Of a DNA stretch of 64,000 bases, positions 20,823 to 38,600 are shown in pieces. The DNA is taken from the IMG/VR virus record IMGVR_UViG_3300044646_003076; one strand, 5' to 3'. Every line of letters starts with the position of its first letter. Positions within the stretch are counted from its first letter, which is position 1. This DNA comes from a virus. Position numbers and translations under genes: made by a program. The notes beneath the pieces are model-generated. The model saw only the letters and a program-made list of their open reading frames with translations, was not told where the DNA came from and searched no databases.

Positions 20823-21229
20823 ATAATTCAGATATTATGGATATTTTTGATGATCCAAACACATCTCAAGAAACACTAAGAAAATTAGCGACTGATGAGA
20901 ATTGGGAGGTTCGTTTGCGATTAGCAGGACATCCAAACACACCACCAGAAACTTTAGAACATCTAGCCGTAGATAAGTGTTACACTGTTCGTATGAATGT
21001 GGCACATAATCTAAGGACATCAACAAAAACACTAAAATTATTGGCGGAGGATAAAGATTTTCGTGTTCGTTGGGCAGTAGCACTAAACCGAAACACACCA
21101 ATAAAAACACTAGAATTATTGGCGATGGATGAGGAGGCTGGTGTTCGTTATCGGGTAACAAATAACAAAATCTGCCCACATTATATCAAGAAGTTTCTTA
21201 AAATTCAAAAGCATCTGGCTAGATTATGA
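20810..21229 (+). CDS. LRV/HEAT-like repeat protein A (4 repeats plus C-cap)
   Basis: 26-aa xPNTxxxxLxxLAxDxxxxVRxxVAx repeats; ends YIKKFLKIQKHLARL. Confidence 0.9.
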   Translation: MDSLNNSDIMDIFDDPNTSQETLRKLATDENWEVRLRLAGHPNTPPETLEHLAVDKCYTVRMNVAHNLRTSTKTLKLLAEDKDFRVRWAVALNRNTPIKTLELLAMDEEAGVRYRVTNNKICPHYIKKFLKIQKHLARL

Positions 21230-21783
21230 GAAAAGTTAAACAAGCTAAAGATCCATACACTTCAACCGAAATTCTAGAACAACTAGCGACCGATGAGGAT
21301 TCTAGTGTTCGTTGGAATGTAGTACGTAATCCAAACACACCACCAGAAGCTCTAGAACAATTAGCGACTGACAAGAATCCTGGGGTTCGTTGGGAGGTAG
21401 CGAGAAATCCAAACACACCACCAGAAGCTCTAGAACAATTAGCGACTGACAAGAATCCTGGGGTTCGTTGGGCAGTAGCACTACATCCAAACACCCCACC
21501 AACAACATTAGAACTTCTAGCGACCGATGATGATGATTATGTTCGTCAGGGAGTAGCACTACATCCAAACACCCCACCAAAAGCACTAGAAATTCTAGCG
21601 ACCGATATGGATTATCGTGTTCGTTGGCGGGTAGCAAGATTACCAAATATACAACCAAAATTATTAGAAATCTTAGCTACCGATGAGAATCCATATGTTC
21701 GTATATGGCTAGCACAAAATCCAAACACACCACGCTACATCAAAAAGTATCTTAAAATTCAAGAACAACTTCAAAAATTATGA
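21226..21783 (+). CDS. LRV/HEAT-like repeat protein B (6 repeats plus C-cap)
   Basis: 78-nt in-frame repeats; ATGA overlap with A. Confidence 0.92.
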   Translation: MRKVKQAKDPYTSTEILEQLATDEDSSVRWNVVRNPNTPPEALEQLATDKNPGVRWEVARNPNTPPEALEQLATDKNPGVRWAVALHPNTPPTTLELLATDDDDYVRQGVALHPNTPPKALEILATDMDYRVRWRVARLPNIQPKLLEILATDENPYVRIWLAQNPNTPRYIKKYLKIQEQLQKL

Positions 21784-21911
21784 CGACTTCCTTTGATGAT
21801 AACGATCCACCACAGCTTAACTTTGATAAATTATACGAACGAATAAAACAACAAAGAATGGAAGAACTCTTTTCTGAGCCCTATGATGGTGATATGGAAG
21901 AAGAGGATTGA
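21780..21911 (+). CDS. Small acidic hypothetical protein (43 aa)
   Basis: Start supplied by the ATGA overlap at the end of repeat gene B. Confidence 0.5.
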   Translation: MTTSFDDNDPPQLNFDKLYERIKQQRMEELFSEPYDGDMEEED

Positions 21912-21919
21912 ATTTATTC

Positions 21920-21992
21920 GCTCGTCTAGCCATCCGGTGAAGGCAACGAACTCATAATTCGTAGGAGGTGGGTTCGATCCCCACGACGAGCA
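21920..21992 (+). tRNA. tRNA with CAU anticodon (elongator Met or lysidine-type Ile2)
   Basis: Acceptor GCTCGTC/GACGAGC; anticodon arm ACGAA-CTCATAA-TTCGT; T arm GTGGG-TTCGATC-CCCAC; G1:C72 pair excludes initiator type. Confidence 0.9.
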
Positions 21993-21996
21993 TTGT

Positions 21997-22054
21997 GTGA
22001 CAGTCAATAAACTGTACACAAATATCAACACTCTCAAGTGTTGTATGCTACTAT
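21997..22054 (+). promoter_or_regulatory. Dyad element plus extended -10 promoter
   Basis: GTGACAGT-N5-AACTGTACAC then TGCTACTAT. Confidence 0.6.
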
Positions 22055-22111
22055 AAAAACGGTCAAAAGACCAATTGTTCCTTTATCTATTTTTTCTCAT
22101 AATCGTTTAAA

Positions 22112-22339
22112 ATGACAAGAAAACCGTTTGATGGCAAGTTCAGTAAGGATATTCATATTCTTACTCGTGCAACTAAAGGAGAAGTCTATCTCGGCGACTA
22201 TCCCAAAATCATCAAAAAACTTAAACGTTATTTTACTGAGCAATATTCTGATATCCAATTCTATAATGAACCCGAATCCGATAATTTTTATTTATTGGAT
22301 CTGATTCGGAATGAACTAGAAATTGATGTAGTGGTGTGA
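22112..22339 (+). CDS. Conserved cyanophage hypothetical protein
   Basis: FSKDIHILTRATKGEVYL...LKRYF. Confidence 0.65.
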   Translation: MTRKPFDGKFSKDIHILTRATKGEVYLGDYPKIIKKLKRYFTEQYSDIQFYNEPESDNFYLLDLIRNELEIDVVV

Positions 22340-22342
22340 ATT

Positions 22343-22774
22343 ATGGATACCAATCTTTTTTGGAATCTGAGAGGTAATTATTCAGAACGTAAAGAAAAAC
22401 TTTCTAAGATGTCTCGTGAGTATTTGGAAGCCTCTGTCTTAGATTCATGTTATAATAACTTCATCACCAATATAGAGGAAAATAATACTACTGGCGTAAA
22501 GAGAATTCCTTATATTGGATGGTATTGGCGCCATGTAACATTTAGCGATTTTACCAATATCCGTATTGGAGATTGTGGTCAATTTGTTGGATTTATGGAG
22601 AGCAATAAGTGGGATCATCCAGAAAGATATCTTACCGAAGATGAGGGGTGTAGTATTATTGCATTTATTGATAATGCAATGAGAATTCAAGAGGGAGCTA
22701 GTTCCGAGACAACTCTTGATATCGTTCTTCAAAATCTATGGGATTATATGCAAACTTTGAAAATTGAAAGATGA
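22343..22774 (+). CDS. Hypothetical protein
   Basis: Packed ORF. Confidence 0.6.
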   Translation: MDTNLFWNLRGNYSERKEKLSKMSREYLEASVLDSCYNNFITNIEENNTTGVKRIPYIGWYWRHVTFSDFTNIRIGDCGQFVGFMESNKWDHPERYLTEDEGCSIIAFIDNAMRIQEGASSETTLDIVLQNLWDYMQTLKIER

Positions 22775-23135
22775 CTAATCTATTTGTAGGTGAATCCGAT
22801 TTCCGAGAATGGTTGGAAGCTAATAATTTTTGGATTTATTCCTCATATAAAGATGATCCATGGAATGAATGTAATTGGTATGCGTGTCGGCGGGTTGCCC
22901 CGGAAAGCCGAAGATGTGATTGTAATGATGAAAACCCGGATTACAATTGGTAATCAGGCCATATCATTCCACCTATTTTACTAATTCTAGAACTGCTACA
23001 TTTGAAATTATCGGGAAAACAAAAGGAATTTGGTATAATCTAACAGCTTATTCTATCAATATTGATGATGTTCCTGAAAAAATAGACGAAGTTTCAGAAT
23101 CACTTGCTCGCGCCTGGGAGGCTCTTGTTCTATGA
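22771..23135 (+). pseudogene. Single gene apparently split by a -1 break at AAAACCC (22931-22937)
   Basis: ...RRCDCNDE then KPGLQLVIRPYH in the -1 frame joins ORFs 22771 and 22947. Confidence 0.55.
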
Positions 23136-23275
23136 TACCAGAATTAATGATTCTTGGATTCCTATTGATTATTGCTTCTTTTTCTGGTAACGGAAGTAGT
23201 TCAATATCTTTTGAAAATAAAAATAAGCCAAAAGGGCCACCACTAAAATTTAAAAAAATCACAAAGGAAAAATAA

Positions 23276-23563
23276 ATGAGTAACACATTACATGTCTATG
23301 CACAGTCAGCACCACATGACAGTGTTTTTATCTGTGGAACTAAAGAATCACTAGAAAAACTAAGAGAAACATTAGATAATATTCTTACTGAAGATCTTAA
23401 GTTTGGTGCTTATGATGAGTTTACTAATGATGGCGAGGGATATAACGTACATATTGATTTGTTATCTGAAGAGAAAATGGAGCAGATGGCCGTTCCCTAT
23501 AGTGATGAGATTTTCTGGAATAATGAATCCAATAAAACAAAAGTGTATCCTTGGTATCTTTGA
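23276..23563 (+). CDS. Hypothetical protein
   Basis: HDSVFICGTKESLEKLR...FTNDGEGY pattern; Shine-Dalgarno AAGGA upstream. Confidence 0.65.
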   Translation: MSNTLHVYAQSAPHDSVFICGTKESLEKLRETLDNILTEDLKFGAYDEFTNDGEGYNVHIDLLSEEKMEQMAVPYSDEIFWNNESNKTKVYPWYL

Positions 23564-23597
23564 ATAATAATCACCAACAAATAATGAATTTTGTATT

Positions 23598-23855
23598 ATG
23601 GATTACGGATTAACGCCATATTGTTTATCAAGAAATCCAAACACACCACCAAAAGCCCTAGAACAACTAGCGACCGATGAGTGGGGTCCTATTCGTTGTT
23701 GGGTAGCACTAAACCCAAACACTCCACCAACAACATTAAAACAACTAGCAACCGATGAGGAATGGTATGTTCGTTGGGGTGTAGCACGAAATCCAAATAC
23801 TCCACGCTATCTCAAGAAGTATCTTAAAATTCAAGAACATTTGGTGAGATTATGA
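23598..23855 (+). CDS. LRV/HEAT-like repeat protein C (2 repeats plus C-cap)
   Basis: 26-aa repeats; ends YLKKYLKIQEHLVRL. Confidence 0.88.
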   Translation: MDYGLTPYCLSRNPNTPPKALEQLATDEWGPIRCWVALNPNTPPTTLKQLATDEEWYVRWGVARNPNTPRYLKKYLKIQEHLVRL

Positions 23856-24409
23856 ACAAATTTGAACAAGCTAGAGATCCAAATACACCACAAGAAGAGT
23901 TAGAGCGTCTAGCTACTGATGATGAGTATCTGGTTCGTTGTGGTGTAGCACGAAATCCATCCACACCAACAAAAGCCCTAGAACAACTAGCGACTGATAA
24001 GTGTGGTAATGCTCGTGAAGGAGTAGCAGATAATCCAAACACTCCACCAGAAATCCTAGAACAATTAGCGACCGATGAGGATTATTGGGTTCGTTGGAGA
24101 GTAGCACATAATCCAAACACACCACCAAAAGCCCTAGAACAACTAGCGACCGATGAGGATTCTAGTGTTCGTTATTGGGTAGCAGAAAATCCAAACACAC
24201 CACCAAAAGCTCTAGAACAACTAGAGACCGATGAGAATTCTGATGTTCGTTGGAGTGTAGCAGATAATCCAAACACACCACCAAAAGCTCTAGAACAACT
24301 AGCGACCGATGAGAATTCTGATGTTCGTTGGAGTGTAGCAGATAATCCAAACACTCCACGCTATCTCAAAAAGTATCTTAAAATTCAAGAACATCTAGCT
24401 AAATTATGA
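23852..24409 (+). CDS. LRV/HEAT-like repeat protein D (6 repeats plus C-cap)
   Basis: MNKFEQARDPNTP N-cap; 78-nt repeats; ATGA overlap. Confidence 0.92.
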   Translation: MNKFEQARDPNTPQEELERLATDDEYLVRCGVARNPSTPTKALEQLATDKCGNAREGVADNPNTPPEILEQLATDEDYWVRWRVAHNPNTPPKALEQLATDEDSSVRYWVAENPNTPPKALEQLETDENSDVRWSVADNPNTPPKALEQLATDENSDVRWSVADNPNTPRYLKKYLKIQEHLAKL

Positions 24410-24726
24410 ACGCTATGGAAAAAGAAGAACAACTTCAAAGATTAGAATCTTATTTTGATCGTATTAAAAACACTCTTGAATTATGTGGCCCAAGTCAGGA
24501 GTTTATTGAAGAAGTAAGAGAACTTTTAGGATTTTCTCATGTAATAAGTGGAGTTGCTTGCTCAGAATGTGATGGATCCGGATATAAAGTCTATGGTTCT
24601 ACTGCAGGATGGGCCGGAGGCATTGGTGGACAGACAATAACGACGAGTGTATGTGATTGTTGCTGGGGAAGTGGAAGAAGTGATAAAAAATTCGGAGATT
24701 TAAGAAAACTTAGATCCATGTCTTAA
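24406..24726 (+). CDS. Hypothetical protein with DnaJ-type CxxCxGxG motifs
   Basis: CSECDGSG...CDCCWGSG. Confidence 0.65.
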   Translation: MNAMEKEEQLQRLESYFDRIKNTLELCGPSQEFIEEVRELLGFSHVISGVACSECDGSGYKVYGSTAGWAGGIGGQTITTSVCDCCWGSGRSDKKFGDLRKLRSMS

Positions 24727-24737
24727 ATAGTTAAAAC

Positions 24738-24977
24738 GTGTATAATGGAAGAATGGACCGTTCAACTTTTTTACGCTACATAGGTAACATTTTTCTTATC
24801 GTTGGTTATTTCATTCTTCTTCATGTTGATATGACGGCTGGCCTTTTGATAAAATGCATCGGTGGTTTCTTGACTGTTCCGTTTGCTGTTAAATACAAAC
24901 TGTGGGATGTTGTCTTTATATGGGGCTTCTTCAGCTTTATTGAAATCGCCAAAATTATTGAATTGCTTACTAAATGA
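24738..24977 (+). CDS. Small membrane protein
   Basis: Multiple hydrophobic segments; TAAATA at 24724. Confidence 0.65.
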   Translation: MYNGRMDRSTFLRYIGNIFLIVGYFILLHVDMTAGLLIKCIGGFLTVPFAVKYKLWDVVFIWGFFSFIEIAKIIELLTK

Positions 24978-24980
24978 ACT

Positions 24981-25778
24981 ATGTTAGCTAATAACTCAAT
25001 AGGAAATCTCGGGAGACTCGGCAATCAAATGTTTCAATATGCTGCTCTTAGAGGAATAGCGGTGGAACATAATTATGAGTATTGTCTTCCACCATTGAAT
25101 TTCATTGCAACTCAAGATCCTAATTGTGCAACTAGCGATTGCACTATTTTTGATTGTTTTATGTTACCCGAAGCACCAAGACGACTGCTTTCTGGACCGA
25201 TTCTAGAAGAATCTTCTTTTGAGTTTGACAATAATCTATGGAATTCGTGTCCTGATAACGTTTCTCTTTATGGTTATTTTCAAAGCGAAAAATACTTTAA
25301 CCATATAAAAGAGAACATAAGAAACTCTTTTCGGTTCAAAGAAACTTCTGAAATATCTTATGCTTCTAGTTTCTTTAATGAGGAATTCAATAATACCTCA
25401 GTGATCTCCTTACACATTAGAAGAGGAGATTATCTTAAATACACTCATCATCCAACTCTTCCGATGAGTTATTATGAAGACGCTCTTAGTCAGTTGCCTG
25501 ATGTTCCAGTTTTTGTTTTTTCGGATGATGTGAATTGGTGTAAACAAGAAGTGTCATTTCGTTCGGATAGATTTTATATTTCAGAATCTAACAGTACGGC
25601 AGTTGATCTTTATCTTCAATCCAGATGTAGTCATCATATTATTGCAAACAGTTCCTTTAGTTGGTGGGGAGCGTGGTTAGCTAAAAGTCAAAAAGTTATT
25701 GCACCGAAGCAATGGTTCGGACCACCACTAACACATAATACAAAAGATCTTTACTGTGAGGATTGGATTCAATGCTAA
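24981..25778 (+). CDS. Alpha-1,2-fucosyltransferase-like (GT11)
   Basis: GRLGNQMFQYA, GYFQSEKYF, LHIRRGDY, IIANSSFSWWGAWL. Confidence 0.92.
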   Translation: MLANNSIGNLGRLGNQMFQYAALRGIAVEHNYEYCLPPLNFIATQDPNCATSDCTIFDCFMLPEAPRRLLSGPILEESSFEFDNNLWNSCPDNVSLYGYFQSEKYFNHIKENIRNSFRFKETSEISYASSFFNEEFNNTSVISLHIRRGDYLKYTHHPTLPMSYYEDALSQLPDVPVFVFSDDVNWCKQEVSFRSDRFYISESNSTAVDLYLQSRCSHHIIANSSFSWWGAWLAKSQKVIAPKQWFGPPLTHNTKDLYCEDWIQC

Positions 25779-26389
25779 TTTCATTATCTGAAATGATAAC
25801 AAAATATAATATGAATATTCGGGGTGTTATTCATATTGGCGCTCATTATGGCGAAGAGGTTCCCGAATACATTAAAAATGGAATTTCTGAACTTCATCTG
25901 TTTGAACCTCTGTCGGAAAACTATAAAATTTTAAGGAATAATCTCCAAGACCTAAAGATTAATTGGGCAACTTATCACTGTGCATTGGGAAATAAAAACG
26001 AAAGAGTTACAATGTTTGTTAGTGATAACCAACAACAAAGTAGCTCAATTCTTTCACCGAAAGATCATCTAACACATCATCCAAATGTGAGATTTCCTAC
26101 AACGGAAGAAGTTTTAGTCACTACTTTGGACTCTCAAGAAATTGAAAATTGTAACTTCATTAATATGGATGTGCAGGGTTATGAGTTGGAAGTTCTTAAA
26201 GGTGCATCTAAAACTTTAGAACATGTTGAATATGTTTATTGTGAAGTCAATAGAGCCGAAGTTTATGAAAATAATGCTTTCGTAGAAGAGATTGATGAGT
26301 TCCTTTCTCAATACAATATGATCAGAGTGGAAACAGATTGGGCAGGAGAAATCTGGGGTGATGCACTTTATGTGAGAACCGAGAGATGA
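25763..26389 (+). CDS. FkbM-family SAM methyltransferase
   Basis: VIHIGAHYGEE, FEP, NMDVQGYELEVLKG. Confidence 0.9.
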   Translation: MDSMLISLSEMITKYNMNIRGVIHIGAHYGEEVPEYIKNGISELHLFEPLSENYKILRNNLQDLKINWATYHCALGNKNERVTMFVSDNQQQSSSILSPKDHLTHHPNVRFPTTEEVLVTTLDSQEIENCNFINMDVQGYELEVLKGASKTLEHVEYVYCEVNRAEVYENNAFVEEIDEFLSQYNMIRVETDWAGEIWGDALYVRTER

Positions 26390-27024
26390 AAACTTTAAAT
26401 GATTATTTTGATGAGATTTATTGTATTAATCTTGATAGACGAGTAGATCGTTGGAAACAAGTAGAACAAGAGTTTATTAAACATTCAATAACAGTTAATC
26501 GTTATTCTGCTATTGATGGTCAAGAACTCAATATGGGATTATTTTCATATTCAACAAACTTTGAGACTCCCGGACAATTAGCGTGTTTTATCTCACACTA
26601 CAATATCATAAAAACTGCAAGATATAAAAATCTTTCTTCTGTTCTTATTCTTGAAGATGATGTCGTATTTTCTGAAAATTTTGATTCTCAATTAGAGCAG
26701 AAGATGCCAGATGTTCCCGAAAATTGGGATATGCTTTTCTTTGGTGCCAATCATATTAGTGGTCCGATCCGAATCACAGATAATGTTTATAAGATGACAA
26801 GAGCTTATTCTGCACACTGTTATGCGATTAAGAATACGATGTTTGATATTCTTCTAGAACATCTTTGTCAATTCCGAGAACCTCTAGATGTCGTTTATGC
26901 TAATTTACAATCATCTATCAATTCTTATGTTCTTAATCCTCATTTAGTATGGCAGAATCCTGGATATTCTGATATCTGCGAACAGTCAGTAGATTATACA
27001 CACGTTCATAAAATTTCATTTTGA
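26386..27024 (+). CDS. Glycosyltransferase family 25
   Basis: CINLDRRVDRW, ACFISHY, LILEDD. Confidence 0.88.
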   Translation: MKTLNDYFDEIYCINLDRRVDRWKQVEQEFIKHSITVNRYSAIDGQELNMGLFSYSTNFETPGQLACFISHYNIIKTARYKNLSSVLILEDDVVFSENFDSQLEQKMPDVPENWDMLFFGANHISGPIRITDNVYKMTRAYSAHCYAIKNTMFDILLEHLCQFREPLDVVYANLQSSINSYVLNPHLVWQNPGYSDICEQSVDYTHVHKISF

Positions 27025-27671
27025 CTATGTACGATAACGTAACACTCGTTTTAACAAGTTGTGGAAGATTAGATCTTCTAGAACAAACTATCAATTCAAT
27101 TAGTAAAGGTGTATTGTATAATATTCCAACAAAAATTATTGTAGACGATTCTACAGACCCCGAAGTTTATAAAAATATCAAAAAAGCTTCTTATTTAAGA
27201 GGATGGAAGAAAATTCTCAATAAAGAAAAATTGGGACAAGCTGCTTCTATTGACAGTGCTTATGCTTATGTCAAGACCGATTATGTCTTCCATTGCGAAG
27301 ATGATTGGCATTTTGATGACTTTGATTTTGTTGGTCCATCATTGAGTATTCTGGAGAAATATGATAATCTGGTTCAAGTGACCTTCAGAAAAGATTCACC
27401 TCATCCTACACATGAAGAGATCTACGAAAAAGAGGAAAATCCTTTTAAGGTTCTGATTCCAGGATATAATGGGTGGCCAGGATTTACTTATAATCCAAAT
27501 ATCTTTCGTTTTTCTGCATATAAAAAATTGGGTTCTTGTGCTGGAATGTCTGAAAAAGATGTTGGAATCTTTTATAAAGATAATCAACTTTATACTGCTG
27601 CACTTGAGACTCGTGTTGTCTCTCATCTTGGTGATGGCAGACACGTTTATGATACAATTAGCGGAGTTTGA
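27021..27671 (+). CDS. Glycosyltransferase (GT-A fold)
   Basis: TSCGRLDLL, IIVDDS, FHCEDDW, HLGDGRH. Confidence 0.8.
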   Translation: MTMYDNVTLVLTSCGRLDLLEQTINSISKGVLYNIPTKIIVDDSTDPEVYKNIKKASYLRGWKKILNKEKLGQAASIDSAYAYVKTDYVFHCEDDWHFDDFDFVGPSLSILEKYDNLVQVTFRKDSPHPTHEEIYEKEENPFKVLIPGYNGWPGFTYNPNIFRFSAYKKLGSCAGMSEKDVGIFYKDNQLYTAALETRVVSHLGDGRHVYDTISGV

Positions 27672-27674
27672 ATT

Positions 27675-28430
27675 ATGAAAAAGGTTGCAGCCTTGATGAT
27701 GGTAAAAGATGAGATTGATATTATTGAACAAAATATTCACTATCTTTTAACTCAAAATCTTGATTTTGTGTGTGTCTATGATAACGGTTCAACCGATGGA
27801 ACACGACAGAAGTTAGACGACTTAGCTTATTTTTATGAAGAGGAATTATTGGTATTTGATGATCCAGAAACAGGATATTATCAATCAACGAAGATGAATA
27901 ATTGGGCAAACGAACTCTTTCAAGATGATGTAGATGTTGTTATTCCTATTGATGCTGATGAGATTTGGTACTCAAAGAATCCAAATTATACTCTAGGTGA
28001 AATCATAAGAAATACTGATGCAGATATTTTTGTTGCAGATTCGGTGGATTATATTCCAACTGTTTTTGATGACTTTAATGAGAGAAATTTTATTCAAAGA
28101 ATGAAACAACGAAAAGTCAATTCAAATTCTTTTTCAGCCGTTGCATTTAATTATAGTCCGGGATTTTATCTTGAAATGGGTAACCATGATGTGCATAATC
28201 ATTCGGGAAAAAGAGTTCACGATAAAATTGGTATTCGGCATTATCAATATCGTACTTTTGACCAATTTGCAAAAAAAGTTCGCAATGGAAAGAAAGCATA
28301 TGATGCAACAACTCTTCCTGATTTTATGGGAAGCCACTGGAGAAAACTGGGTGCGATGGATGATTCTGAACTCAGAAAATACTGGGTGGATTATTGTTCG
28401 GTAGAAACTGTTGAGGATCCAGTTGTATGA
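27675..28430 (+). CDS. Glycosyltransferase family 2-like
   Basis: MVKDEIDII, YDNGSTDGT, IDADE. Confidence 0.85.
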   Translation: MKKVAALMMVKDEIDIIEQNIHYLLTQNLDFVCVYDNGSTDGTRQKLDDLAYFYEEELLVFDDPETGYYQSTKMNNWANELFQDDVDVVIPIDADEIWYSKNPNYTLGEIIRNTDADIFVADSVDYIPTVFDDFNERNFIQRMKQRKVNSNSFSAVAFNYSPGFYLEMGNHDVHNHSGKRVHDKIGIRHYQYRTFDQFAKKVRNGKKAYDATTLPDFMGSHWRKLGAMDDSELRKYWVDYCSVETVEDPVV

Positions 28431-30662: not shown

Positions 30663-30679
30663 GAATTCTATTCAAATTA

Positions 30680-31147: not shown

Positions 31148-31148
31148 G

Positions 31149-31604: not shown

Positions 31605-32099
31605 ATGAAAGAAGCAACATTATATACGATTAATACTACTAAAGTAATGATTGTTCGGGATGATTATGTCACAGTTTCTGGTTGTAATCCTGTAGATTTA
31701 ACAAAATGTGCTAAAGTGGGCATTGGTGAATTTCTAATCGCTCCCATGTATTCTAAAATTGATTTGCCACTTTATAGAATTAACAGAGTAATACAACCCA
31801 CACAACCATTCATTAACTCGTGTCCTAGTGATATCCCAAAAACTAAAGAATTTTTTATTGCAATTGAACCAGCTCTCGCCGAAATTTTAGAAGCACCTTA
31901 TTCTAGTAAGATGTCCCGTATATCAAATGAGTTATTTAAAATTGAAGAGCAGTACAAAAAATCCACTGAAGAATGTGAATTTTGGAAGAGTGAGTGTGAA
32001 AGAATTAAAACACAAGCACATGGAGAAATTGAAGCTCTTAAAAACCAATCACTTAAACAAAAACTCGTTTCTTTAGTGAGACAGATTTTCAATAAATAA
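31605..32099 (+). CDS. Hypothetical protein with C-terminal coiled coil
   Basis: Packed ORF. Confidence 0.6.
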   Translation: MKEATLYTINTTKVMIVRDDYVTVSGCNPVDLTKCAKVGIGEFLIAPMYSKIDLPLYRINRVIQPTQPFINSCPSDIPKTKEFFIAIEPALAEILEAPYSSKMSRISNELFKIEEQYKKSTEECEFWKSECERIKTQAHGEIEALKNQSLKQKLVSLVRQIFNK

Positions 32100-32111
32100 G
32101 AAAAACGCTTC

Positions 32112-32405
32112 TTGTTTATGATCGGCTTTATTACGAAGGATGGATATGCAGCAGTTCCTTATGGTAAACAATTAATGATAATTTTTAACAACGAACAGTT
32201 AGAAGTTGTTAAGACGATTAAACAAGCAGAGTTATTCATCAATAATCATAAAGCCGGTCCACAAACTGCCACACCAAAACTCAGAACACCTAAAAAATCT
32301 GCTATGGTAGACGCTACTGATATAAAAACTCAAAATGGAAAAGAAAAGAGTAGTAAAATTAAGACAAGCAAAAGCAACTCAAGACGAAGTAAAAAACTTG
32401 TGTGA
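32112..32405 (+). CDS. Conserved cyanophage hypothetical protein
   Basis: GFITKDGYAAVPYGKQLMII; TAAATA at 32093. Confidence 0.7.
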   Translation: MFMIGFITKDGYAAVPYGKQLMIIFNNEQLEVVKTIKQAELFINNHKAGPQTATPKLRTPKKSAMVDATDIKTQNGKEKSSKIKTSKSNSRRSKKLV

Positions 32406-32688
32406 GTTCTTGAATATGATTGATGAAGTTCTACATTTAAGAACATACACGAGCGAAGACGAAGAAACAGAAAAAATTCCAACAAATGATAGATTCGTAG
32501 AACTTATTGAACAGTTTTGGTGTGGTGATCTTATTAATATAACAACTGGAATCAGTAATTCATGGAGAAGAATTGTCTTTGGATATGTGACACTTTTTGA
32601 CAATGCATGTGATCCAAATTCTGAATTTCTAGAGTGGAGAGAAGACATCGCGGAATTTCTTGAGAATAAAAATGACGATACCAATTGA
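32335..32688 (+). CDS. Hypothetical protein
   Basis: Packed ORF. Confidence 0.6.
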   Translation: MEKKRVVKLRQAKATQDEVKNLCEFLNMIDEVLHLRTYTSEDEETEKIPTNDRFVELIEQFWCGDLINITTGISNSWRRIVFGYVTLFDNACDPNSEFLEWREDIAEFLENKNDDTN

Positions 32689-32875
32689 AGAATATCACGC
32701 TCTTTCTAATACCATGAGACTTCTTTATGAACTCGTTGATCCCAAAAAATCTCCTGATGTTCCTAAAAATATTAGAAACAAAGCTGCTCTTTGTCTGAGA
32801 CATTTTCCAACACCGGTAAGACTTGACGAGATTTACCAATCCGAATCTTACAATAAAATTCCAAAGAGATACTAA
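32660..32875 (+). CDS. Conserved phage hypothetical protein
   Basis: LVDPKKSPDVPKNIRNKAALCLRHFP. Confidence 0.7.
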   Translation: MRIKMTIPIEEYHALSNTMRLLYELVDPKKSPDVPKNIRNKAALCLRHFPTPVRLDEIYQSESYNKIPKRY

Positions 32876-32876
32876 A

Positions 32877-33038
32877 ATGGAATTTCTTTTAGCAACAACT
32901 ATTACCTGTGCTCATCTTAATGCCATTCTGATTCGTTTATATCGGAATTTGGATCTAACACCGATTCAGAAAATGGAAGTCGCTAAAGAATTAAAAAGCT
33001 ACATCAAAATCTGTCCTATAGAAATCAAAAAAGACTGA
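32877..33038 (+). CDS. Small cyanophage hypothetical protein
   Basis: MEFLLATTITC...QKMEVAKEL...CP. Confidence 0.6.
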   Translation: MEFLLATTITCAHLNAILIRLYRNLDLTPIQKMEVAKELKSYIKICPIEIKKD

Positions 33039-33286
33039 TGAACTCACTCTACTATTATGGCCTTCTGTCAGTATTCTGTGTTGTTGTCTATATGATGGTA
33101 GTAGATAAAAACGTGGCGGATTATATAGTTCTTATGTTTAAGCTTTTTCTTATTAATGTTGAAAGATTAAAGTGGCTGATCATTCATCATCCTAAAAATC
33201 CTATTACGAGATGGTGGATGGATCGTAAGTTCAAAAAGTTTATCAAAGAGATGCAGGACACTTCACAAACTGGTCCATCTGAGTGA
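33038..33286 (+). CDS. Conserved cyanophage membrane protein
   Basis: TM helix then DKNVADY...HPKNPITRWWM. Confidence 0.7.
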   Translation: MNSLYYYGLLSVFCVVVYMMVVDKNVADYIVLMFKLFLINVERLKWLIIHHPKNPITRWWMDRKFKKFIKEMQDTSQTGPSE

Positions 33287-33312
33287 GTTCCGGATCTGTT
33301 CTGTGCTACTAT
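33255..33312 (+). promoter_or_regulatory. Dyad element plus extended -10 promoter
   Basis: AGGACA-N7-AACTGGTCCA then TGTGCTACTAT. Confidence 0.55.
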
Positions 33313-33320
33313 GAACACAG

Positions 33321-33932
33321 TTGAGCAAAACCATGACTGATAGTTTTGATATGAGCGGTCTTCTTGATCGCATCAATAAGATCAAAAAAGAAGGAGAAAA
33401 ATCAACCGAATTTACTCTAGAATGCTTACAATGTCTTCTTGAACGCCACGATCTAAAATATTCTATTCATCTCGATTTTGAAGTTGTTGATGTTCCTTTT
33501 GTTATTCTAGAATCTCTAAGACAAGGAATTCTACCATCAAAAGAACAGATTTGTCTACTAGATGATGAAGTTCAATCTAACTTTATTGCCGAAATGATCT
33601 GGGTTTGTGGAATGAATACCATTTCTTATTATACCAGAGACATTCCACCAGATGAAGATGGAGAAACAGTTCTTGATCAGTTTTTGGTAATGTTGGAAGT
33701 TAGTGAAAGTCATTTTATTGGATGTTATTTAATCTCAGCCTTGACGCTTCTTATGGGAAATATTCCATCCATTGAGATGATTGAAACCATTACAGATAAC
33801 TTCAACAACAACCCACAACATATAGCAAAAAGTCTAGAAATTTTCTATGAATTCATCAGAGCGATTCACTCTCGATGGAAAGAAGATAAACTCAACTATG
33901 AATCATTCACACAAAATTTTAAAGAGGTATAA
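33321..33932 (+). CDS. Hypothetical protein
   Basis: 203-aa packed ORF. Confidence 0.6.
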   Translation: MSKTMTDSFDMSGLLDRINKIKKEGEKSTEFTLECLQCLLERHDLKYSIHLDFEVVDVPFVILESLRQGILPSKEQICLLDDEVQSNFIAEMIWVCGMNTISYYTRDIPPDEDGETVLDQFLVMLEVSESHFIGCYLISALTLLMGNIPSIEMIETITDNFNNNPQHIAKSLEIFYEFIRAIHSRWKEDKLNYESFTQNFKEV

Positions 33933-33934
33933 AA

Positions 33935-34147
33935 ATGGCGCTATCAAATTCTGTTAATGAGAGTCTAGATGAGGCTCAATCACAACTTAAGAATGCATTG
34001 GCCTATGCTGCTCGTCAAGAAGCACCTTATGTAATGGTCGGTATCGCTAGAATTATCCATGAAATTGATACGATTAAAAAGACAGATTCTGCGCATGAGC
34101 AACTTCAAAAATTTATTAATCAAATTAATCCTGACATTCAACTTTGA
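33935..34147 (+). CDS. Conserved cyanophage hypothetical protein
   Basis: MALSNSVNESLDEAQSQLKNALAYAARQE. Confidence 0.7.
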   Translation: MALSNSVNESLDEAQSQLKNALAYAARQEAPYVMVGIARIIHEIDTIKKTDSAHEQLQKFINQINPDIQL

Positions 34148-34569
34148 TTCTTTTTCTTCTACCTATCCGTATTCGTGAAGAGATGACACTAAATCCAAAC
34201 ACACCAACAAAAGCTCTAGAACAACTAGCGACCGATGAGGATTCTTGGGTTCGTTGTTGTGTAGCACTAAACCCAAACACACCACCAGAAGCTCTAGGAC
34301 AATTAGCGACTGATGAAAATCCTAATGTTCGTTATTGGGTAGCAGAAAACCCAAACACACCACCAGAAGCTCTAGGACAATTAGCGACTGATAAGAATCC
34401 TTATGTTCGTTATTGGGTAGCAGAAAACCCAAACACACCAATAAAAATCCTAGAACAACTAGCTACCGATAAGGATTCTCTGGTTCGTCGTGGTGTTGTA
34501 CAAAATCCAAACGCACCTCACTATCTCAAGAAGTATCTTAAAATTCAAGAACAACTGGCGATGTTATGA
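34144..34569 (+). CDS. LRV/HEAT-like repeat protein E (4 repeats plus C-cap)
   Basis: 78-nt repeats; TTGA overlap with the upstream stop. Confidence 0.88.
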   Translation: MILFLLPIRIREEMTLNPNTPTKALEQLATDEDSWVRCCVALNPNTPPEALGQLATDENPNVRYWVAENPNTPPEALGQLATDKNPYVRYWVAENPNTPIKILEQLATDKDSLVRRGVVQNPNAPHYLKKYLKIQEQLAML

Positions 34570-35051
34570 ACAAATTTGAACAAGCTGGAGATCCAAACAC
34601 TCAACCAAAAACCCTAGAACAACTAGCGACTGATGAGGAATATTTGGTTCGTTGTTGTGTAGCAAATAATCCAAACTCTTCACCCAAAACTCTAGAGCTT
34701 CTAGCGACCGATGAGGATTATCGTGTCCGTATTGTTGTAGCAGAAAATCTAAACACTCCACTAGAAATCCTAGAACAACTGGCAACCGATGAGAATTCTG
34801 GTGTTCGTTATAATATAGCAAATAATCCAAACACACCACCAAAAGCCCTAGAACAACTAGCGACCGATAGGTATTATGAGGTTCGTTGGAGGGTAGCATG
34901 TAATCAAAACATTCCACCAAAAGCTCTAGAACAACTAGCGACCGATGGGAATTGGGATGTTCGTTGTGAAGTAGCACTAAACCCAAACACACCACATTAC
35001 ATCAAAAAGTATATTAAAATTAAACAATACCTATCATGTCTACATTTTTAA
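34566..35051 (+). CDS. LRV/HEAT-like repeat protein F (5 repeats plus C-cap)
   Basis: MNKFEQAGDPNT N-cap; 3' end overlaps the glutaredoxin start. Confidence 0.9.
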   Translation: MNKFEQAGDPNTQPKTLEQLATDEEYLVRCCVANNPNSSPKTLELLATDEDYRVRIVVAENLNTPLEILEQLATDENSGVRYNIANNPNTPPKALEQLATDRYYEVRWRVACNQNIPPKALEQLATDGNWDVRCEVALNPNTPHYIKKYIKIKQYLSCLHF

Positions 35052-35275
35052 TTTATTCAAAACCCGGTTGTCCTTATTGTGTTAAAATTAAACAGGTAAT
35101 GGACCTCAAGGAACTAAAACATGTTCTTTATACTCTAGATCAAGATTTCACTAAAGAAGAGTTTTACAATAAATTCGGCAATGGATCAACCTTCCCTCAG
35201 GTAGTCTATAATGATCAAAATCTCGGTGGTTGTGTTGACACGATCAAATATTTAAAAGAAAATAATATAATCTAA
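35036..35275 (+). CDS. Glutaredoxin
   Basis: CPYC active site; TFPQV; LGGC. Confidence 0.93.
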   Translation: MSTFLIYSKPGCPYCVKIKQVMDLKELKHVLYTLDQDFTKEEFYNKFGNGSTFPQVVYNDQNLGGCVDTIKYLKENNII

Positions 35276-35638
35276 ATGGATGAAATTTATTACGATCTCC
35301 AACAGGCAATTGATTTTGCTTTCGTACAAAATAAGTATGTACTAAATTCTTTTTCTTATTTGAAAGTCAAAGATGTAAGACGAGTTGATGCACAAGAATT
35401 GTTAAGATCATCTTTAGTGCAGGAACTATACTCCTATATCAATGATCTTAATCTTTATCTGAAGAATAGTCAAGATCCAGATGTTCTTTATGCAGAAGAA
35501 GCTTATGGTTTTCTTACCAAAGCCGATGCCAAAAGAATTTCTACTTATTTTGATAACATTATAGAAGGAATAAAAAAGTACATTCAAGAGAGAAAAGGTG
35601 CAACAAAAAAACCAAAACCCAGAACCAAATCTAAATAA
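35276..35638 (+). CDS. Conserved cyanophage hypothetical protein
   Basis: AIDFAF...EAYGFL...A.RI pattern. Confidence 0.7.
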   Translation: MDEIYYDLQQAIDFAFVQNKYVLNSFSYLKVKDVRRVDAQELLRSSLVQELYSYINDLNLYLKNSQDPDVLYAEEAYGFLTKADAKRISTYFDNIIEGIKKYIQERKGATKKPKPRTKSK

Positions 35639-35792
35639 AGTTGACAGGGGTTTAGTTTTCATGCTCCAACCCAAGCAAAAGGAGGGCTCAATCTTTAGCT
35701 TAGTATGGTACAAGATGGTCGCTCTTTTCAACAAGGAATACCATCTTCGTTTTGAGTTTCAAGTTAAACCAAAAGGAGGATTAAACAAATGA
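35598..35792 (+). CDS. Hypothetical protein
   Basis: LNKVDRGLVFM pattern, packed. Confidence 0.55.
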   Translation: MQQKNQNPEPNLNKVDRGLVFMLQPKQKEGSIFSLVWYKMVALFNKEYHLRFEFQVKPKGGLNK

Positions 35793-36031
35793 TTACGTTC
35801 GCAATAATCACACTTAGTATTCTTGTTCTTGTTGCATTCTTGGGTATCGGCGTTATCACAGGTTATCTTGTTCGCCAATATTTTGAAGAGAATAAACCAG
35901 TTTATGCTACACATCCCGAATTATGGGATAGAGAAACCGGAAGACTTATTGTAGATTCAGAAATTCTGGCTATTAGAGTTGAAAACGAAAGCGGTGTTGA
36001 AATCGCTCCTGACGAATTAGAAGATGTTTGA
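35789..36031 (+). CDS. Single-TM cyanophage hypothetical protein
   Basis: TM helix then THPELWD...ILAIRVEN. Confidence 0.7.
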   Translation: MITFAIITLSILVLVAFLGIGVITGYLVRQYFEENKPVYATHPELWDRETGRLIVDSEILAIRVENESGVEIAPDELEDV

Positions 36032-36043
36032 AAATAAACAATT

Positions 36044-36607
36044 ATGACAACAGAAACAACAACAAAACCAAAGACTACCAGAGCTAAACCGATTGAAAAG
36101 CTCTCATCTAATCCTTTCATGTTTGAGATTTTAGATCTGGTTATTAAGCAAAAAACAAAAGCTAAAAAAATTGAAGTTTTAAATGAATATCGTTATGATG
36201 GAATGCTGATGATCTTTCTGTGGAATTATGTTCCAACACTGGAGTCCGCTCTGCCTCCTGGAGATGTTCCCTACTCAACACTGAAGGAGTTGGAGCTGGG
36301 TAACGACACGCTCTCAGAGACCGTCAGAAAGCAGATTGACGCGGATCAGATGGTGGACGCTCTAGGATCCAACATGAGAACCAGCATTCGTAGAGAGCAT
36401 CAGATTTTTTACAACTTTCTTAAAGGTGGTAATCCAAGTCTGGCTAGTATCCGAAGAGAGACAATGTTTATCAATCTTCTAGAAGGTCTTCATCCGAGAG
36501 AAGCTGAAATTCTTATTCTTACAAAAGATAAGAGACTTACCGACAAGTATCCTATTCCTTTTGAACTTCTTCGTGAAGCTTATCCTGATGTGAAGTGGGA
36601 CCGATGA
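36044..36607 (+). CDS. Conserved T4-like cyanophage hypothetical protein
   Basis: LPPGDVPY...RRETMFINLLEGLHPREAEIL. Confidence 0.75.
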   Translation: MTTETTTKPKTTRAKPIEKLSSNPFMFEILDLVIKQKTKAKKIEVLNEYRYDGMLMIFLWNYVPTLESALPPGDVPYSTLKELELGNDTLSETVRKQIDADQMVDALGSNMRTSIRREHQIFYNFLKGGNPSLASIRRETMFINLLEGLHPREAEILILTKDKRLTDKYPIPFELLREAYPDVKWDR

Positions 36608-36909
36608 TGTGGACTGAAGAAGAGAGAAAAAGTGTTCCTTCTCAATATAATTGTGAACTTCTTTTTCATAATGCCAATGATGATCAACTAAAGAATCCAG
36701 AGCTTCCGAGTGATGCCTATATTGTAGAGTATAATACAGATAGTGGTTCTTTTATTGATCTTTGTAGATCTAGTAAAATGTCTAATATCTTTGATTTATA
36801 TTATGATAAAGTGGGCAATAACATCCGCCGCATTGATTTTGGTTATGGGCGGATGAATCCAAGACTTTGGGGTAACCCAGTTCCAGAACAGAAGAAGAGA
36901 AAAAGATGA
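36595..36909 (+). CDS. Conserved cyanophage hypothetical protein
   Basis: LPSDAYIVEY...IFDLYYD...FGYGRMNPRLWG. Confidence 0.7.
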   Translation: MGPMMWTEEERKSVPSQYNCELLFHNANDDQLKNPELPSDAYIVEYNTDSGSFIDLCRSSKMSNIFDLYYDKVGNNIRRIDFGYGRMNPRLWGNPVPEQKKRKR

Positions 36910-37094
36910 GTGAAGGATTTAATAAACTAAGAGTTAATATTAACAAAGACGAGTTCAATAAGATTATCCGAAAATATAAAAACGCAAAACGTTATATGAA
37001 ATCTGGAATTTTTGCTGTTAGAACGATGAACGGAACAGAAGAATATATTTCTGGTCTTCTCAAAGAAACCGACAATCCTTCACTAATGAATTAA
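36906..37094 (+). CDS. Hypothetical protein
   Basis: MSEGF...YMKSGIFAVRTMNGTE. Confidence 0.65.
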   Translation: MSEGFNKLRVNINKDEFNKIIRKYKNAKRYMKSGIFAVRTMNGTEEYISGLLKETDNPSLMN

Positions 37095-37421
37095 ATGGGT
37101 AAGCATTATCTACTGAATCTTTATGGTTGTGATCCACTTCTTCTTAATGATATGGATTTTGTTGTTAAGATGTTGTCTGATGCAGCTTTATTTTGTAATG
37201 CGACTATATTAAATGTTGCATCGCATAAGTTTGAGCCTTGTGGTCTTACAGTAGTTTTAATGCTTGCCGAATCGCATATTAGTATGCATACATGGCCCGA
37301 TAGACATACCGCAGCGTGTGATGTTTATACTTGTTCTAAGACCGATCCAAAGATTGGATGTGATTTTATTATTGAAAAACTTCGTCCAATTAAAAACGAT
37401 TTGATCTTTATTCAGAGATAA
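37095..37421 (+). CDS. speD: S-adenosylmethionine decarboxylase-like proenzyme
   Basis: GKHYLLNLYGC; MLAESHISMHTWP self-cleavage site; DVYTC. Confidence 0.92.
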   Translation: MGKHYLLNLYGCDPLLLNDMDFVVKMLSDAALFCNATILNVASHKFEPCGLTVVLMLAESHISMHTWPDRHTAACDVYTCSKTDPKIGCDFIIEKLRPIKNDLIFIQR

Positions 37422-37440
37422 CTTATTGAGCTATTTTATT

Positions 37441-37998
37441 ATGAACGAACTTGACCAGGCTATAGATCCTAACACACCATCAACAATATTAGAACAACTA
37501 GCGACCGATGAGGATTGTGGTGTTCGTTGTTGTGTAGCACAAAATCCAAACACTTCATCAGAAATTCTAGAACAACTAGCAACTAATGATGAATGGTATG
37601 TTCGTTATTATGTATCATATAATCCAAACACATCACCGACAACATTAGAAGTTCTAGCGACAGATGAGGAATATTGGGTTCGTCGTGATGTAGCGTGTCA
37701 TTCAAACACACCACCAACAACATTAGAACAACTAGCGACCGATGTGTATTCTAATGTTCGTCATGGTGTAGCAGATAATCCAAATACTCCACCAAAAGTC
37801 TTAGAAATTCTAGCGACCGATGAGGAATATTGTGTTCGTTGGAGAGTAGCAGATAATCCAAACACACCACCAAAAATCTTAGAACAACTAGCGACCGATG
37901 ATGATTGGGATGTTCGTTGGAGGGTAGCAGGAAATCCAAACACACCACACTATATCAAGAAGTATCTTAAAATTCAAGAACATTTGGCTAGATTATGA
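37441..37998 (+). CDS. LRV/HEAT-like repeat protein G (6 repeats plus C-cap)
   Basis: 78-nt repeats; ends YIKKYLKIQEHLARL. Confidence 0.92.
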   Translation: MNELDQAIDPNTPSTILEQLATDEDCGVRCCVAQNPNTSSEILEQLATNDEWYVRYYVSYNPNTSPTTLEVLATDEEYWVRRDVACHSNTPPTTLEQLATDVYSNVRHGVADNPNTPPKVLEILATDEEYCVRWRVADNPNTPPKILEQLATDDDWDVRWRVAGNPNTPHYIKKYLKIQEHLARL

Positions 37999-38255
37999 AC
38001 AAAAAGAAACTAATACTTCATCTTAATAGTATTCAAAATCTTATTGATACCATAAGACTTGAATTAGAAGAGGAAGAAAATGTTATTGATTCTCAACCAA
38101 ATAATACCATAAGTATTCCAGATTTTATTAGATCCGCTAATGTTGATTTAGAAGATGATGTTCAATATGCAGAAGAATCTGATGACGGACCACCAATACT
38201 GTTGAATAGTAAGGCTGAGCGGGATTTTTATGAAAGATTTAGATTAGGAGATTGA
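37995..38255 (+). CDS. Hypothetical protein
   Basis: Start via ATGA overlap with G; acidic. Confidence 0.6.
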   Translation: MNKKKLILHLNSIQNLIDTIRLELEEEENVIDSQPNNTISIPDFIRSANVDLEDDVQYAEESDDGPPILLNSKAERDFYERFRLGD

Positions 38256-38306
38256 TTGAGATATTATATTTGTGTTTTATGAAACTTGACTGTATAATAA
38301 ATTATT

Positions 38307-38600
38307 ATGATCAAATCGTATCTTGACCAACAACAGAATAATTGGAGAGAATATTGTAATAATTTTCTTTTAGCCGAAAATCCAAACACTTCACCTGAAA
38401 TCCTAGAACAACTAGCGTCTGATGAGAGTTTTTATGTTCGTCGCTGTGTAGCGAGTCATCCAAACACACCACCAAAAGTCCTAGAACAACTAGCGACCGA
38501 TGAGGAATATTATGTTCGTTGGAGTGTAGCACTAAATCCAAACACACCACGCTATCTCAAAAAATATCTTAAAATTCAAGAACATCTAAAAACATTATAA
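38307..38600 (+). CDS. LRV/HEAT-like repeat protein H (2 repeats plus C-cap)
   Basis: 26-aa repeats; ends YLKKYLKIQEHLKTL. Confidence 0.88.
   Translation: MIKSYLDQQQNNWREYCNNFLLAENPNTSPEILEQLASDESFYVRRCVASHPNTPPKVLEQLATDEEYYVRWSVALNPNTPRYLKKYLKIQEHLKTL

What the first reader, a model, noticed from the sequence alone, without database searches (positions are those of the whole stretch)
21180..38600. Conserved C-cap supplies an ATGA start for whichever gene follows: cassette-like insertion
Seen: all eight complete repeat genes end in a near-identical ~55-nt cap (aagtatcttaaaattcaagaaca..., YLKKYLKIQEHLARL). Six finish in TTATGA, whose ATGA starts the next ORF (21226, 21780, 23852, 24406, 34566, 37995), whether another repeat gene or an unrelated one. 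Gene E starts on the upstream stop (TTGA at 34144) and gene F ends inside the glutaredoxin start. Inference: the units land exactly at stop/start junctions of operons without breaking downstream translation, behaving as non-autonomous mobile cassettes. No integrase or transposase is in the window.
Basis: partly seen in the sequence, partly recalled or inferred. Interest (0 to 1): 0.7.

Follow-up and report, generated by a model that had tools for sequence, protein, structure and literature searches.

The report
Phage repeat genes with stop-start caps
A large cyanophage-like virus carries about two dozen small helical-repeat (LRV) genes whose shared last helix ends in TTATGA, so its stop overlaps the next gene's start; these genes are gained, lost and resized by ordinary recombination between their look-alike sequences, not by a jumping-gene machine.

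Summary
The eight genes are LRV (PF01816) solenoid proteins. Seven share a conserved C-terminal cap. Six end in TTATGA, and that ATG opens the next ORF.

The ATGA overlap is enriched: 13/24 LRV genes against 26/219 other genes in the 179.5-kb genome (p=5e-6).

The cap is not a special DNA element.
- It encodes the terminal 15-residue helix in an AlphaFold model (pLDDT 96.5).
- Its conserved 30 nt are no more uniform than the scaffold codons of the internal repeats (0.90 each).
- It is unstructured as RNA.
- It never occurs without an LRV gene.

The synteny test gives a mixed answer.
- A sister genome (~93% nt identity) has LRV genes at all 15 loci. Twelve of these differ by at least one 78-bp repeat or by whole genes.
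- One such indel is bounded by two caps, which points to homologous recombination.
- A clade at ~55% aa identity has LRV genes at other junctions, none between speD and thyX, and one inserted exactly at an ATGA junction.
- More distant relatives have none.

No integrase, target duplication or recent copy (no paralogue pair above 84%) was found.

Verdict: this is a recombination-driven gene family whose units run from ATGA to ATGA. It resembles PeSL shuffling in T4-type phages, but the shared sequence is coding. Earlier reports of this scan described the LRV family in other windows of this genome.

The parts
20810..21229 (+). LRV gene A (139 aa); cap ~21176-21229 ends TTATGA, and the ATG at 21226 starts B
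21226..21783 (+). LRV gene B (185 aa); its TTATGA end starts a 43-aa ORF at 21780
   Evidence: junction kept in sister G002
23598..23855 (+). LRV gene C (85 aa, unique N-terminus); its TTATGA end starts D
23852..24409 (+). LRV gene D (185 aa; canonical N-cap MNKFEQA and C-cap); its TTATGA end starts the 106-aa ORF 24406-24726
   Evidence: AlphaFold model pLDDT 96.5 with the cap as helix 170-184; best fold match 1LRV
34183..34569 (+). LRV gene E (ATG 34183, or TTG 34144 overlapping the upstream TGA); its TTATGA end starts F
34566..35051 (+). LRV gene F. Its cap is truncated and read through into the glutaredoxin start (grx ATG 35036). This is an imprecise junction.
   Evidence: same arrangement in sister G002
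37441..37998 (+). LRV gene G, a solo canonical unit between speD and ORF 37995-38255; its TTATGA end starts that ORF
   Evidence: no LRV gene between speD and thyX in the L003-L005 clade
38307..38600 (+). LRV gene H; its cap ends TTATAA (uncoupled) ahead of the thyX leader. The sister genome has three more LRV genes here, bounded by two copies of this cap.
21780..21911 (+). Coupled downstream ORF (43 aa)
24406..24726 (+). Coupled downstream ORF (106 aa, CxxC zinc-finger-like)
37995..38255 (+). Coupled downstream ORF (86 aa); its first 9 nt equal the start of the LRV N-cap
39366..40298 (+). Gene I (310 aa, only faintly LRV-like, no Pfam hit). It is absent from the sister genome and flanked by a ~24-nt direct repeat of the thyX 3' end (39355-39378 and 40336-40359).

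Best explanation
The eight genes belong to a lineage-specific expansion of small LRV solenoid proteins: about 24 genes at 15 loci in this 179.5-kb cyanophage-like virus.

Each gene is a unit made of:
- an N-cap (ATGAACAAAYTTGAACAAGC, MNK[LF]EQA);
- 2 to 8 repeats of 78 bp;
- a C-cap that encodes the terminal capping helix (P-[HR]-Y-[IL]-K-K-Y-[LI]-K-I-Q-x-x-L-x-x-L).

The last Leu codon (TTA or CTA) plus a TGA stop gives ATGA. Ribosomes that finish an LRV gene can therefore restart at once on the next gene (termination-reinitiation coupling; inferred, not measured).

The caps and repeats are kept alike by ectopic recombination and gene conversion, so they also serve as homology for unequal crossing-over. 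Crossovers between caps, or between repeats, add or remove whole genes or whole repeats in frame. Each such event rebuilds an intact cap with its ATGA junction, so the downstream gene is never uncoupled.

New loci arise rarely, probably by illegitimate or microhomology recombination at gene boundaries. Selection keeps only insertions that preserve the stop-start overlap. The units are passive. There is no element-encoded or site-specific mobility function.
For: Family and fold:
- PF01816 hits.
- AlphaFold pLDDT 96.5 with the cap as the last, 15-residue helix.
- 1LRV is the top fold match.

Family size.

The cap is not a special DNA site:
- The same position-specific codon fixation occurs in the internal repeats. 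Examples: Arg CGT 62/63 against 21% genome-wide, Asn AAC 58/62 against 23%, Val GTA 60/62 against 25%.
- Identity is 0.90 in both the cap core and the repeat scaffold, and the cap has slightly more synonymous variation (32/190 against 95/846).
- Caps are unstructured as RNA.
- No forward promoter hits in caps.
- No caps or N-caps outside LRV genes.

Recombination:
- Sister-genome LRV genes are mosaics. The N-terminal 100 nt matches the positional orthologue, while the C-terminal 100 nt often matches another paralogue best.
- 12 of 15 loci differ by at least 78 bp while their flanks are 92-97% identical.
- At the H locus the extra three genes of G002 lie between two copies of the same cap end, and the second copy is followed by the same thyX leader.

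Coupling under selection:
- ATGA is enriched.
- The residues just before the final Leu vary freely while TTATGA stays.
- The seven capped genes that are not followed by a coupled ORF all stop with TAA.
- All five LRV-to-other ATGA junctions are kept in the sister genome.
Against: - LRV loci differ between this lineage and the clade at ~55% aa identity. One LRV gene there sits exactly at an ATGA junction that is empty in L006 and in the window. Units therefore do reach new junctions, and the route is not shown.
- Two of the three canonical units that follow no other LRV gene at an ATGA junction (G, and the gene at genome 48829) are preceded by TT-ATGAAC, as in tandem junctions; the third (genome 155383) has TTT-ATGAAC. 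Two downstream non-LRV genes begin ATGAAC(AAA). This hints at a fixed unit boundary.
- Translational coupling and the direction of each indel are inferred, not measured.
- Only one close sister genome was available.
Confidence: 0.7

Rival explanations
1. The units are true non-autonomous mobile cassettes. A single LRV unit is excised as a circle by cap-to-cap or cap-to-N-cap exchange, as in PeSL mini-circles. It then re-enters at stop/start (ATGA) junctions, including junctions with no resident LRV gene. The phage recombination machinery does the work and the TTATGA end serves as the targeting microhomology.
For: - Different junctions are occupied in different lineages, and distant relatives of 118-205 kb have none.
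- There is a filled/empty pair at a plain ATGA junction.
- Units start with ATGA and end with TTATGA, so insertion at an ATGA site would regenerate both overlaps.
- Both repeat consensus and cap type are clade-specific, which suggests spread after the clades split.
- PeSL precedent: PMC2839356.
Against: - All 15 loci are shared with the 93% sister.
- No paralogue pair exceeds 84% identity, so there has been no recent copy-and-paste.
- No solo caps or footprints.
- No consistent target duplication at LRV units. The apparent duplication at the L005 junction shrinks to a ~7-nt microhomology once that clade's own cap tail is taken into account.
- Imprecise ends occur: F fused into grx, and the RSLP, DKT and VLMS tails.
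- Circles could not be tested.
Confidence: 0.2
2. Nothing links the cap to gene turnover. ATGA overlaps are ordinary phage genome compaction. The LRV genes were dispersed long ago and differences between lineages reflect differential loss. The cap is conserved only because all members dock to a common partner or need a capping helix.
For: - ATGA overlaps also occur at about 12% of other junctions.
- Loci are static against the sister genome.
- The cap is a structural helix.
- Other LRV subfamilies in the databases have other conserved C-terminal tails.
Against: - The 4- to 9-fold enrichment of ATGA at LRV ends.
- The cap-bounded indel at the H locus.
- Mosaic C-terminal parts.
- 12 of 15 loci are resized while their flanks are 92-97% identical.
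Confidence: 0.1

Closest known systems
PeSL (promoter-early stem-loop) cassettes of T4-type phages (Arbiol et al. 2010, PMC2839356; Comeau et al. 2014, PMC4122927)
   Same: A short conserved sequence repeated at gene boundaries gives homology for recombination that adds, deletes or swaps whole small genes between close relatives. It also carries the expression signal needed by the neighbouring gene. No element-encoded recombinase is involved.
   Different: PeSLs are intergenic promoter-plus-terminator motifs that supply transcription signals, and mini-circles were shown physically. Here the shared sequence is coding (the last helix of the protein itself, plus its repeats). It has no stem-loop and no promoter match. 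It supplies a translational stop-start overlap. Circles were not tested.
Overlapping stop-start (ATGA) translational coupling in bacterial and phage operons (established knowledge)
   Same: There is a four-base overlap of the upstream TGA with the downstream ATG. It is also seen at 26/219 other junctions of this genome.
   Different: Here the overlap is a heritable part of a repeated gene unit and is 4 to 9 times enriched at its ends.
LRV protein of Azotobacter vinelandii (PDB 1LRV; Pfam PF01816) and designed alphaRep/HEAT-like binders
   Same: The same short-helix/long-helix repeat solenoid. 1LRV is the best fold match and alphaRep structures follow it. Pfam LRV hits reach E 2e-44.
   Different: These are small stand-alone proteins of 85-233 aa with no Fe-S domain. 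There are dozens per phage genome, with their own N-cap and C-cap.
Lineage-specific expansions in large phages, such as the ~35 zinc-ribbon copies of Bacillus phage G (Iyer et al. 2021, PMC7824862)
   Same: Many paralogues of one small domain in a single large phage genome.
   Different: The domain is different. Here the unit boundaries are tied to stop-start overlaps, and turnover against a sister genome is documented.
Integron gene cassettes
   Same: Promoterless single-ORF units sit in same-orientation arrays and depend on upstream expression.
   Different: There is no attC hairpin, no IntI-type integrase and no attI site. Units are dispersed at 15 loci.

Membership tests
Pfam LRV (PF01816) repeat proteins | Repeated matches to the 26-position LRV profile above the gathering score | tested here: met
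   All eight genes score 57-147 bits against a cut-off of 21.6. There are 75 repeat matches in the genome.
Pfam LRV (PF01816) repeat proteins | Right-handed solenoid of alternating short and long helices, as in 1LRV | tested here: met
   AlphaFold model with pLDDT 96.5 and alternating 7- and 9-residue helices. Foldseek top hit is 1LRV, E 7.5e-7.
PeSL cassettes of T4-type phages | Intergenic sigma-70-like early promoter next to a stem-loop terminator | tested here: not met
   No forward promoter-like hit in any cap, and promoter-like sites are not enriched (68 found, 73.8 expected). Caps do not fold (z -1.6 to +1.4). The conserved sequence is coding.
PeSL cassettes of T4-type phages | Indels between close relatives bounded by two copies of the motif | tested here: met
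   At the H locus, three extra LRV genes in G002 lie between two copies of the same cap end. Only this one case was resolved to the nucleotide.
PeSL cassettes of T4-type phages | Excised mini-circles | not testable with these tools
   Needs raw reads or PCR on phage DNA.
Integron cassettes | attC imperfect inverted repeat at the 3' end of each cassette | tested here: not met
   Cap regions are unstructured.
Integron cassettes | Tyrosine recombinase IntI with an attI site | tested here: not met
   No PF00589 match in the genome.
MITE / non-autonomous transposon | Terminal inverted repeats and a fixed-length target-site duplication | tested here: not met
   The N-cap and C-cap are unrelated direct-orientation coding sequences. 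No duplication flanks LRV units. No solo ends exist.
Phage morons | An inserted gene with its own promoter and terminator | tested here: not met
   Units abut their neighbours by 4-nt overlaps. No promoter or terminator is predicted at their borders.
Homing-endonuclease-driven mobility | A nearby HNH, GIY-YIG or LAGLIDADG endonuclease gene | tested here: not met
   No HNH. One sub-threshold GIY-YIG-like ORF lies far from any LRV locus. LAGLIDADG was not searched.

The most novel reading that the evidence does not exclude
The LRV units are a coding-sequence counterpart of PeSL cassettes. A piece of the protein's own last helix, together with the N-cap, would act as a portable recombination site. 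Single genes would circularise through it and re-insert at any ATGA stop-start junction, carrying translational coupling with them. The phage could then spread a hypervariable binder family through its operons without any recombinase of the element's own.
Probability: 0.2. Interest if true: 0.7.

Novelty: new variant of a known kind. Interest (0 to 1): 0.45.

Why it matters
It shows how a phage can enlarge and reshuffle a repeat-protein family (likely binders, targets unknown) inside tightly packed operons without breaking expression of neighbouring genes. Because every unit runs from ATGA to ATGA and ends in a shared cap, any crossover between family members gives an intact gene and an intact coupled junction. 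This extends homology-mediated modular shuffling, known for intergenic PeSL motifs in T4-type phages, to homology that lies within coding sequence. For annotation, it warns that such loci are assembly-fragile, vary in copy number, and have starts best called at the ATGA overlaps.

Tried and rejected
1. Cap as a nucleotide-level element. Rejected: its codon uniformity equals that of the repeat scaffold. There is no RNA or DNA hairpin and no forward promoter. Two caps (A, G) give an antisense TTGAAT-17-TATAAT/TATAGT match, but it depends on a synonymous TAT ATC choice that most caps lack, so it is probably chance.
2. Footprints of excision. None: no cap or N-cap outside LRV genes at up to 4 mismatches in G000, G001, G002 or G004.
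3. Recent transposition. Rejected: the best paralogue pair is 84% identical over 530 nt.
4. Duplication of the upstream gene's 3' end at the L005 LRV insertion. I proposed this first. I downgraded it after seeing that the ...YEFYK-x-ME tail belongs to that clade's own cap type. Only a ~7-nt microhomology (AATGGAG) remains.
5. Orthologues of the coupled downstream ORFs 24406 and 37995 in relatives without LRV. Almost none exist beyond the sister genome, so their ancestral start context could not be read.
6. GenBank phages. Only one weak LRV hit, in a Moorella phage, and no close relative of the window.
7. Global alignment of the A/B locus against the sister's single gene was confounded by the repeats. 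It showed only that the sister gene fuses the start of the upstream 43-aa ORF to LRV repeats.
Full report
**What is there.** The window lies at 81046-145045 of a 179.5-kb IMG/VR virus record. Its neighbours (speD, thyX, nrdC-type glutaredoxin, tRNAs) match cyanophage genes only distantly; the best GenBank match is S-SKS1 at ~68% over 13% of the query.

All match Pfam LRV PF01816 at 57-147 bits against a cut-off of 21.6.

The whole record has 75 LRV repeat matches in about 24 genes at 15 loci. Earlier reports of this scan described the same family in other windows of this genome. This report deals only with the cap and junction claim.

**The observation.** A, B, C, D, E and G end in TTATGA, and an ORF of 43-185 aa opens at that ATG at the stated coordinates. 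H ends in TTATAA. F leaves the cap frame and stops 13 nt inside the glutaredoxin gene.

The wording 'near-identical 55 nt' is too strong. Among 20 capped paralogues the first 30 nt of the cap are 0.90 identical on average, and the last 18 nt only 0.60.

E may start at ATG 34183 rather than at the TTG that overlaps the upstream stop. G most likely starts at ATG 37441, which gives the family N-cap MNELDQA.

With a simple greedy gene call, ATGA overlaps occur at 13/24 LRV gene ends against 26/219 other gene ends (odds ratio 8.8, p=5e-6). Taking only junctions from an LRV gene to a non-LRV gene gives 5/13 (p=0.018). These junctions share ancestry, so the p-values overstate independence.

**What the cap is.** An AlphaFold model of gene D, built on seven paralogues, has mean pLDDT 96.5. 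It shows alternating 7- and 9-residue helices, an N-terminal cap helix, and the C-cap as a single 15-residue terminal helix at residues 170-184. The best solved-structure match is 1LRV, followed by PP2A-A HEAT repeats and designed alphaRep binders. The cap therefore sits where the short helix of a further repeat would be, and it closes the solenoid.

At the DNA level, the striking codon uniformity of the cap core (AAG TAT CTT AAA ATT CAA almost invariant) is matched or exceeded in the 64 internal repeats:
- Arg CGT 62/63, against 21% genome-wide.
- Asn AAC 58/62, against 23%.
- Val GTA 60/62, against 25%.
- Ala GCG 45/61, against 14%.

The share of minor synonymous codons is slightly higher in the cap (32/190) than in the repeats (95/846).

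Cap regions do not fold as RNA (z from -1.6 to +1.4). They give no forward promoter match. They never occur outside an LRV gene at up to four mismatches. The cap is thus ordinary family sequence, homogenised like the rest of the gene, and not a separate landing pad.

**Evidence that the ATGA is kept by selection.**
- The two residues before the final Leu vary freely (AR, QK, VR, AK, AM, KT, AI, AT) while TTATGA stays fixed.
- The seven capped genes that have no coupled ORF behind them all stop with TAA.
- All five LRV-to-other junctions keep ATGA in the sister genome.

A scan for the exact cap DNA found only four IMG/VR contigs. They tile a sister genome at about 93% nucleotide identity.

With LRV sequence masked, every one of the 15 LRV loci of this genome is also occupied in the sister genome. 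Twelve of them differ in length by at least one 78-bp repeat, and up to 2.9 kb, while the flanks are 92-97% identical. In the finding's own span:

| Locus | Window | Sister genome |
|---|---|---|
| A+B | two genes | one gene |
| C+D | two genes | one gene |
| F | 161 aa | 83 aa (three repeats fewer) |
| G | 185 aa | 159 aa |
| H | one gene | H plus three more LRV genes |

At the H locus the breakpoints can be read directly. The sister's extra genes lie between two copies of the same cap end. The first copy ends TTATGA and is coupled to the next LRV gene. The second copy has decayed, ends TTATAA, and is followed by the same thyX leader as in the window. That is the signature of homologous exchange within caps or repeats.

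Sister LRV genes are mosaics. Their first 100 nt match the positional orthologue, while their last 100 nt often match another paralogue best. Within this genome no paralogue pair exceeds 84% identity, so no unit has been copied to a new place recently.

**More distant relatives.** Four contigs (L003-L006) share the backbone grx, o35276, anchor gene, o36595, o36906, speD and (in L003-L005) thyX, at about 55% amino-acid identity.

- They carry LRV genes of a different consensus (LTILARDED) and a different cap (ATREVIQTVRAYEFYK...).
- They have no LRV gene between speD and thyX, where the window has G and H.
- L003-L005 have an LRV gene between the anchor gene and o36595. L006 and the window have a plain ATGA overlap at that junction.
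- In the filled state the upstream stop abuts the LRV start (TGATG), and the LRV stop again forms ATGA with o36595.

I first read a duplication of the upstream gene's 3' end at the right border of this insertion. Most of that similarity belongs to the clade's own cap tail, so only a ~7-nt microhomology remains.

Four further relatives of 118-205 kb, two of them 96-100% complete, have no LRV repeats at all. GenBank phages give one weak hit.

LRV genes therefore do come to occupy new junctions on a long time scale.

**Mechanism.**

*Shown:*
- The units run from ATGA to ATGA.
- The cap is a structural helix.
- The family is homogenised and mosaic.
- Close relatives differ by whole repeats and whole genes at fixed loci.
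- One indel is bounded by caps.
- Downstream coupling is preserved throughout.

*Inferred:*
- Unequal homologous recombination and gene conversion between caps and repeats drive the turnover.
- Termination-reinitiation at ATGA expresses whatever follows.
- Rare illegitimate events seed new loci, and selection filters for junctions that keep the overlap.

*Not found:*
- Integrase or HNH. There is only one sub-threshold GIY-YIG-like ORF, far from any LRV locus.
- Hairpins, target duplications at LRV units, or solo ends.

Imprecise ends argue against a site-specific cut: F is fused into grx, and other genes end in RSLP, DKT or VLMS tails.

Many non-LRV indels between the two genomes also show short overlaps of 2-46 nt at their borders. 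One is a clear ~24-nt direct repeat of the thyX end around gene I. Short-homology recombination is therefore the general mode of gene gain and loss in this phage, and the LRV caps are simply its longest and most numerous substrates.

**Comparison with what is known.** The closest described system is PeSL-mediated modular shuffling in T4-type phages. There, conserved intergenic promoter-terminator motifs flank small genes, recombine, and bring expression signals with them (PMC2839356). The logic here is the same, but the motif is coding, the signal is translational, and mini-circles are untested. Membership in the integron, MITE, moron and homing classes fails on their defining features. Large lineage-specific expansions of small domains in big phages have a precedent in phage G's zinc ribbons (PMC7824862). 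I found no paper on LRV expansions in phages.

**Verdict.** Confidence is 0.7 for recombination-driven turnover, 0.2 for true cassette mobility through circles, and 0.1 for no link at all. The case is a new variant of a known kind and of moderate interest.

Noticed in passing
window ~38962-38970 (thyX) versus L119:1-1098 (sister G002 40160-40690): The sister genome's thyX carries an in-frame insert of about 176 aa. It begins with Cys and ends in His-Asn followed by Ser, so it looks like a mini-intein. The window's thyX lacks it.
   Followed up: partly
window 39355-39378 and 40336-40359: Gene I (39366-40298, 310 aa, no Pfam hit) is absent from the sister genome. It is flanked by a ~24-nt direct repeat of the thyX 3' end. 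Its ATG lies inside the last thyX codons.
   Followed up: partly
genome 172133-172585 (outside the window, +91 kb) and proteins P0043, P0046, P0076 and others: One LRV gene has a different C-terminal tail (...QDESLKT[IL].L). Its length is conserved (453 nt in both genomes) and its terminal 100 nt are 95% identical to the sister's copy (88% over the full gene). It has many ~150-aa homologues in metagenomes. It may be the older, single-copy member from which the capped family expanded.
   Followed up: no
window 21180-21208 and 37949-37977, minus strand: The reverse complement of the A and G caps gives a sigma-70-like match (TTGAAT, 17 nt, TATAAT or TATAGT, with TG before the second hexamer). It depends on a synonymous TAT ATC choice that most caps lack, so it is probably chance.
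   Followed up: partly
G001 52875-113317 (loci L122-L125): The sister contig bridges both ends of this record with about 60 kb that has no counterpart here and holds 14 more LRV regions. This record is probably an incomplete genome of about 240 kb; the 'provirus' flag is doubtful.
   Followed up: no
window 20675-20806 versus G002 20360-20863: In the sister genome the first five codons of the 43-aa ORF upstream of gene A are fused directly to LRV repeats (MNPEE-KDWDVRLRVAGHPNT...). LRV recombination can therefore capture a neighbour's start.
   Followed up: partly
gap list, whole genome: About half of the clean non-LRV indels between the two genomes show 2-46 nt of alignment overlap at their borders. 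This suggests short direct repeats mediate gene gain and loss in general.
   Followed up: no
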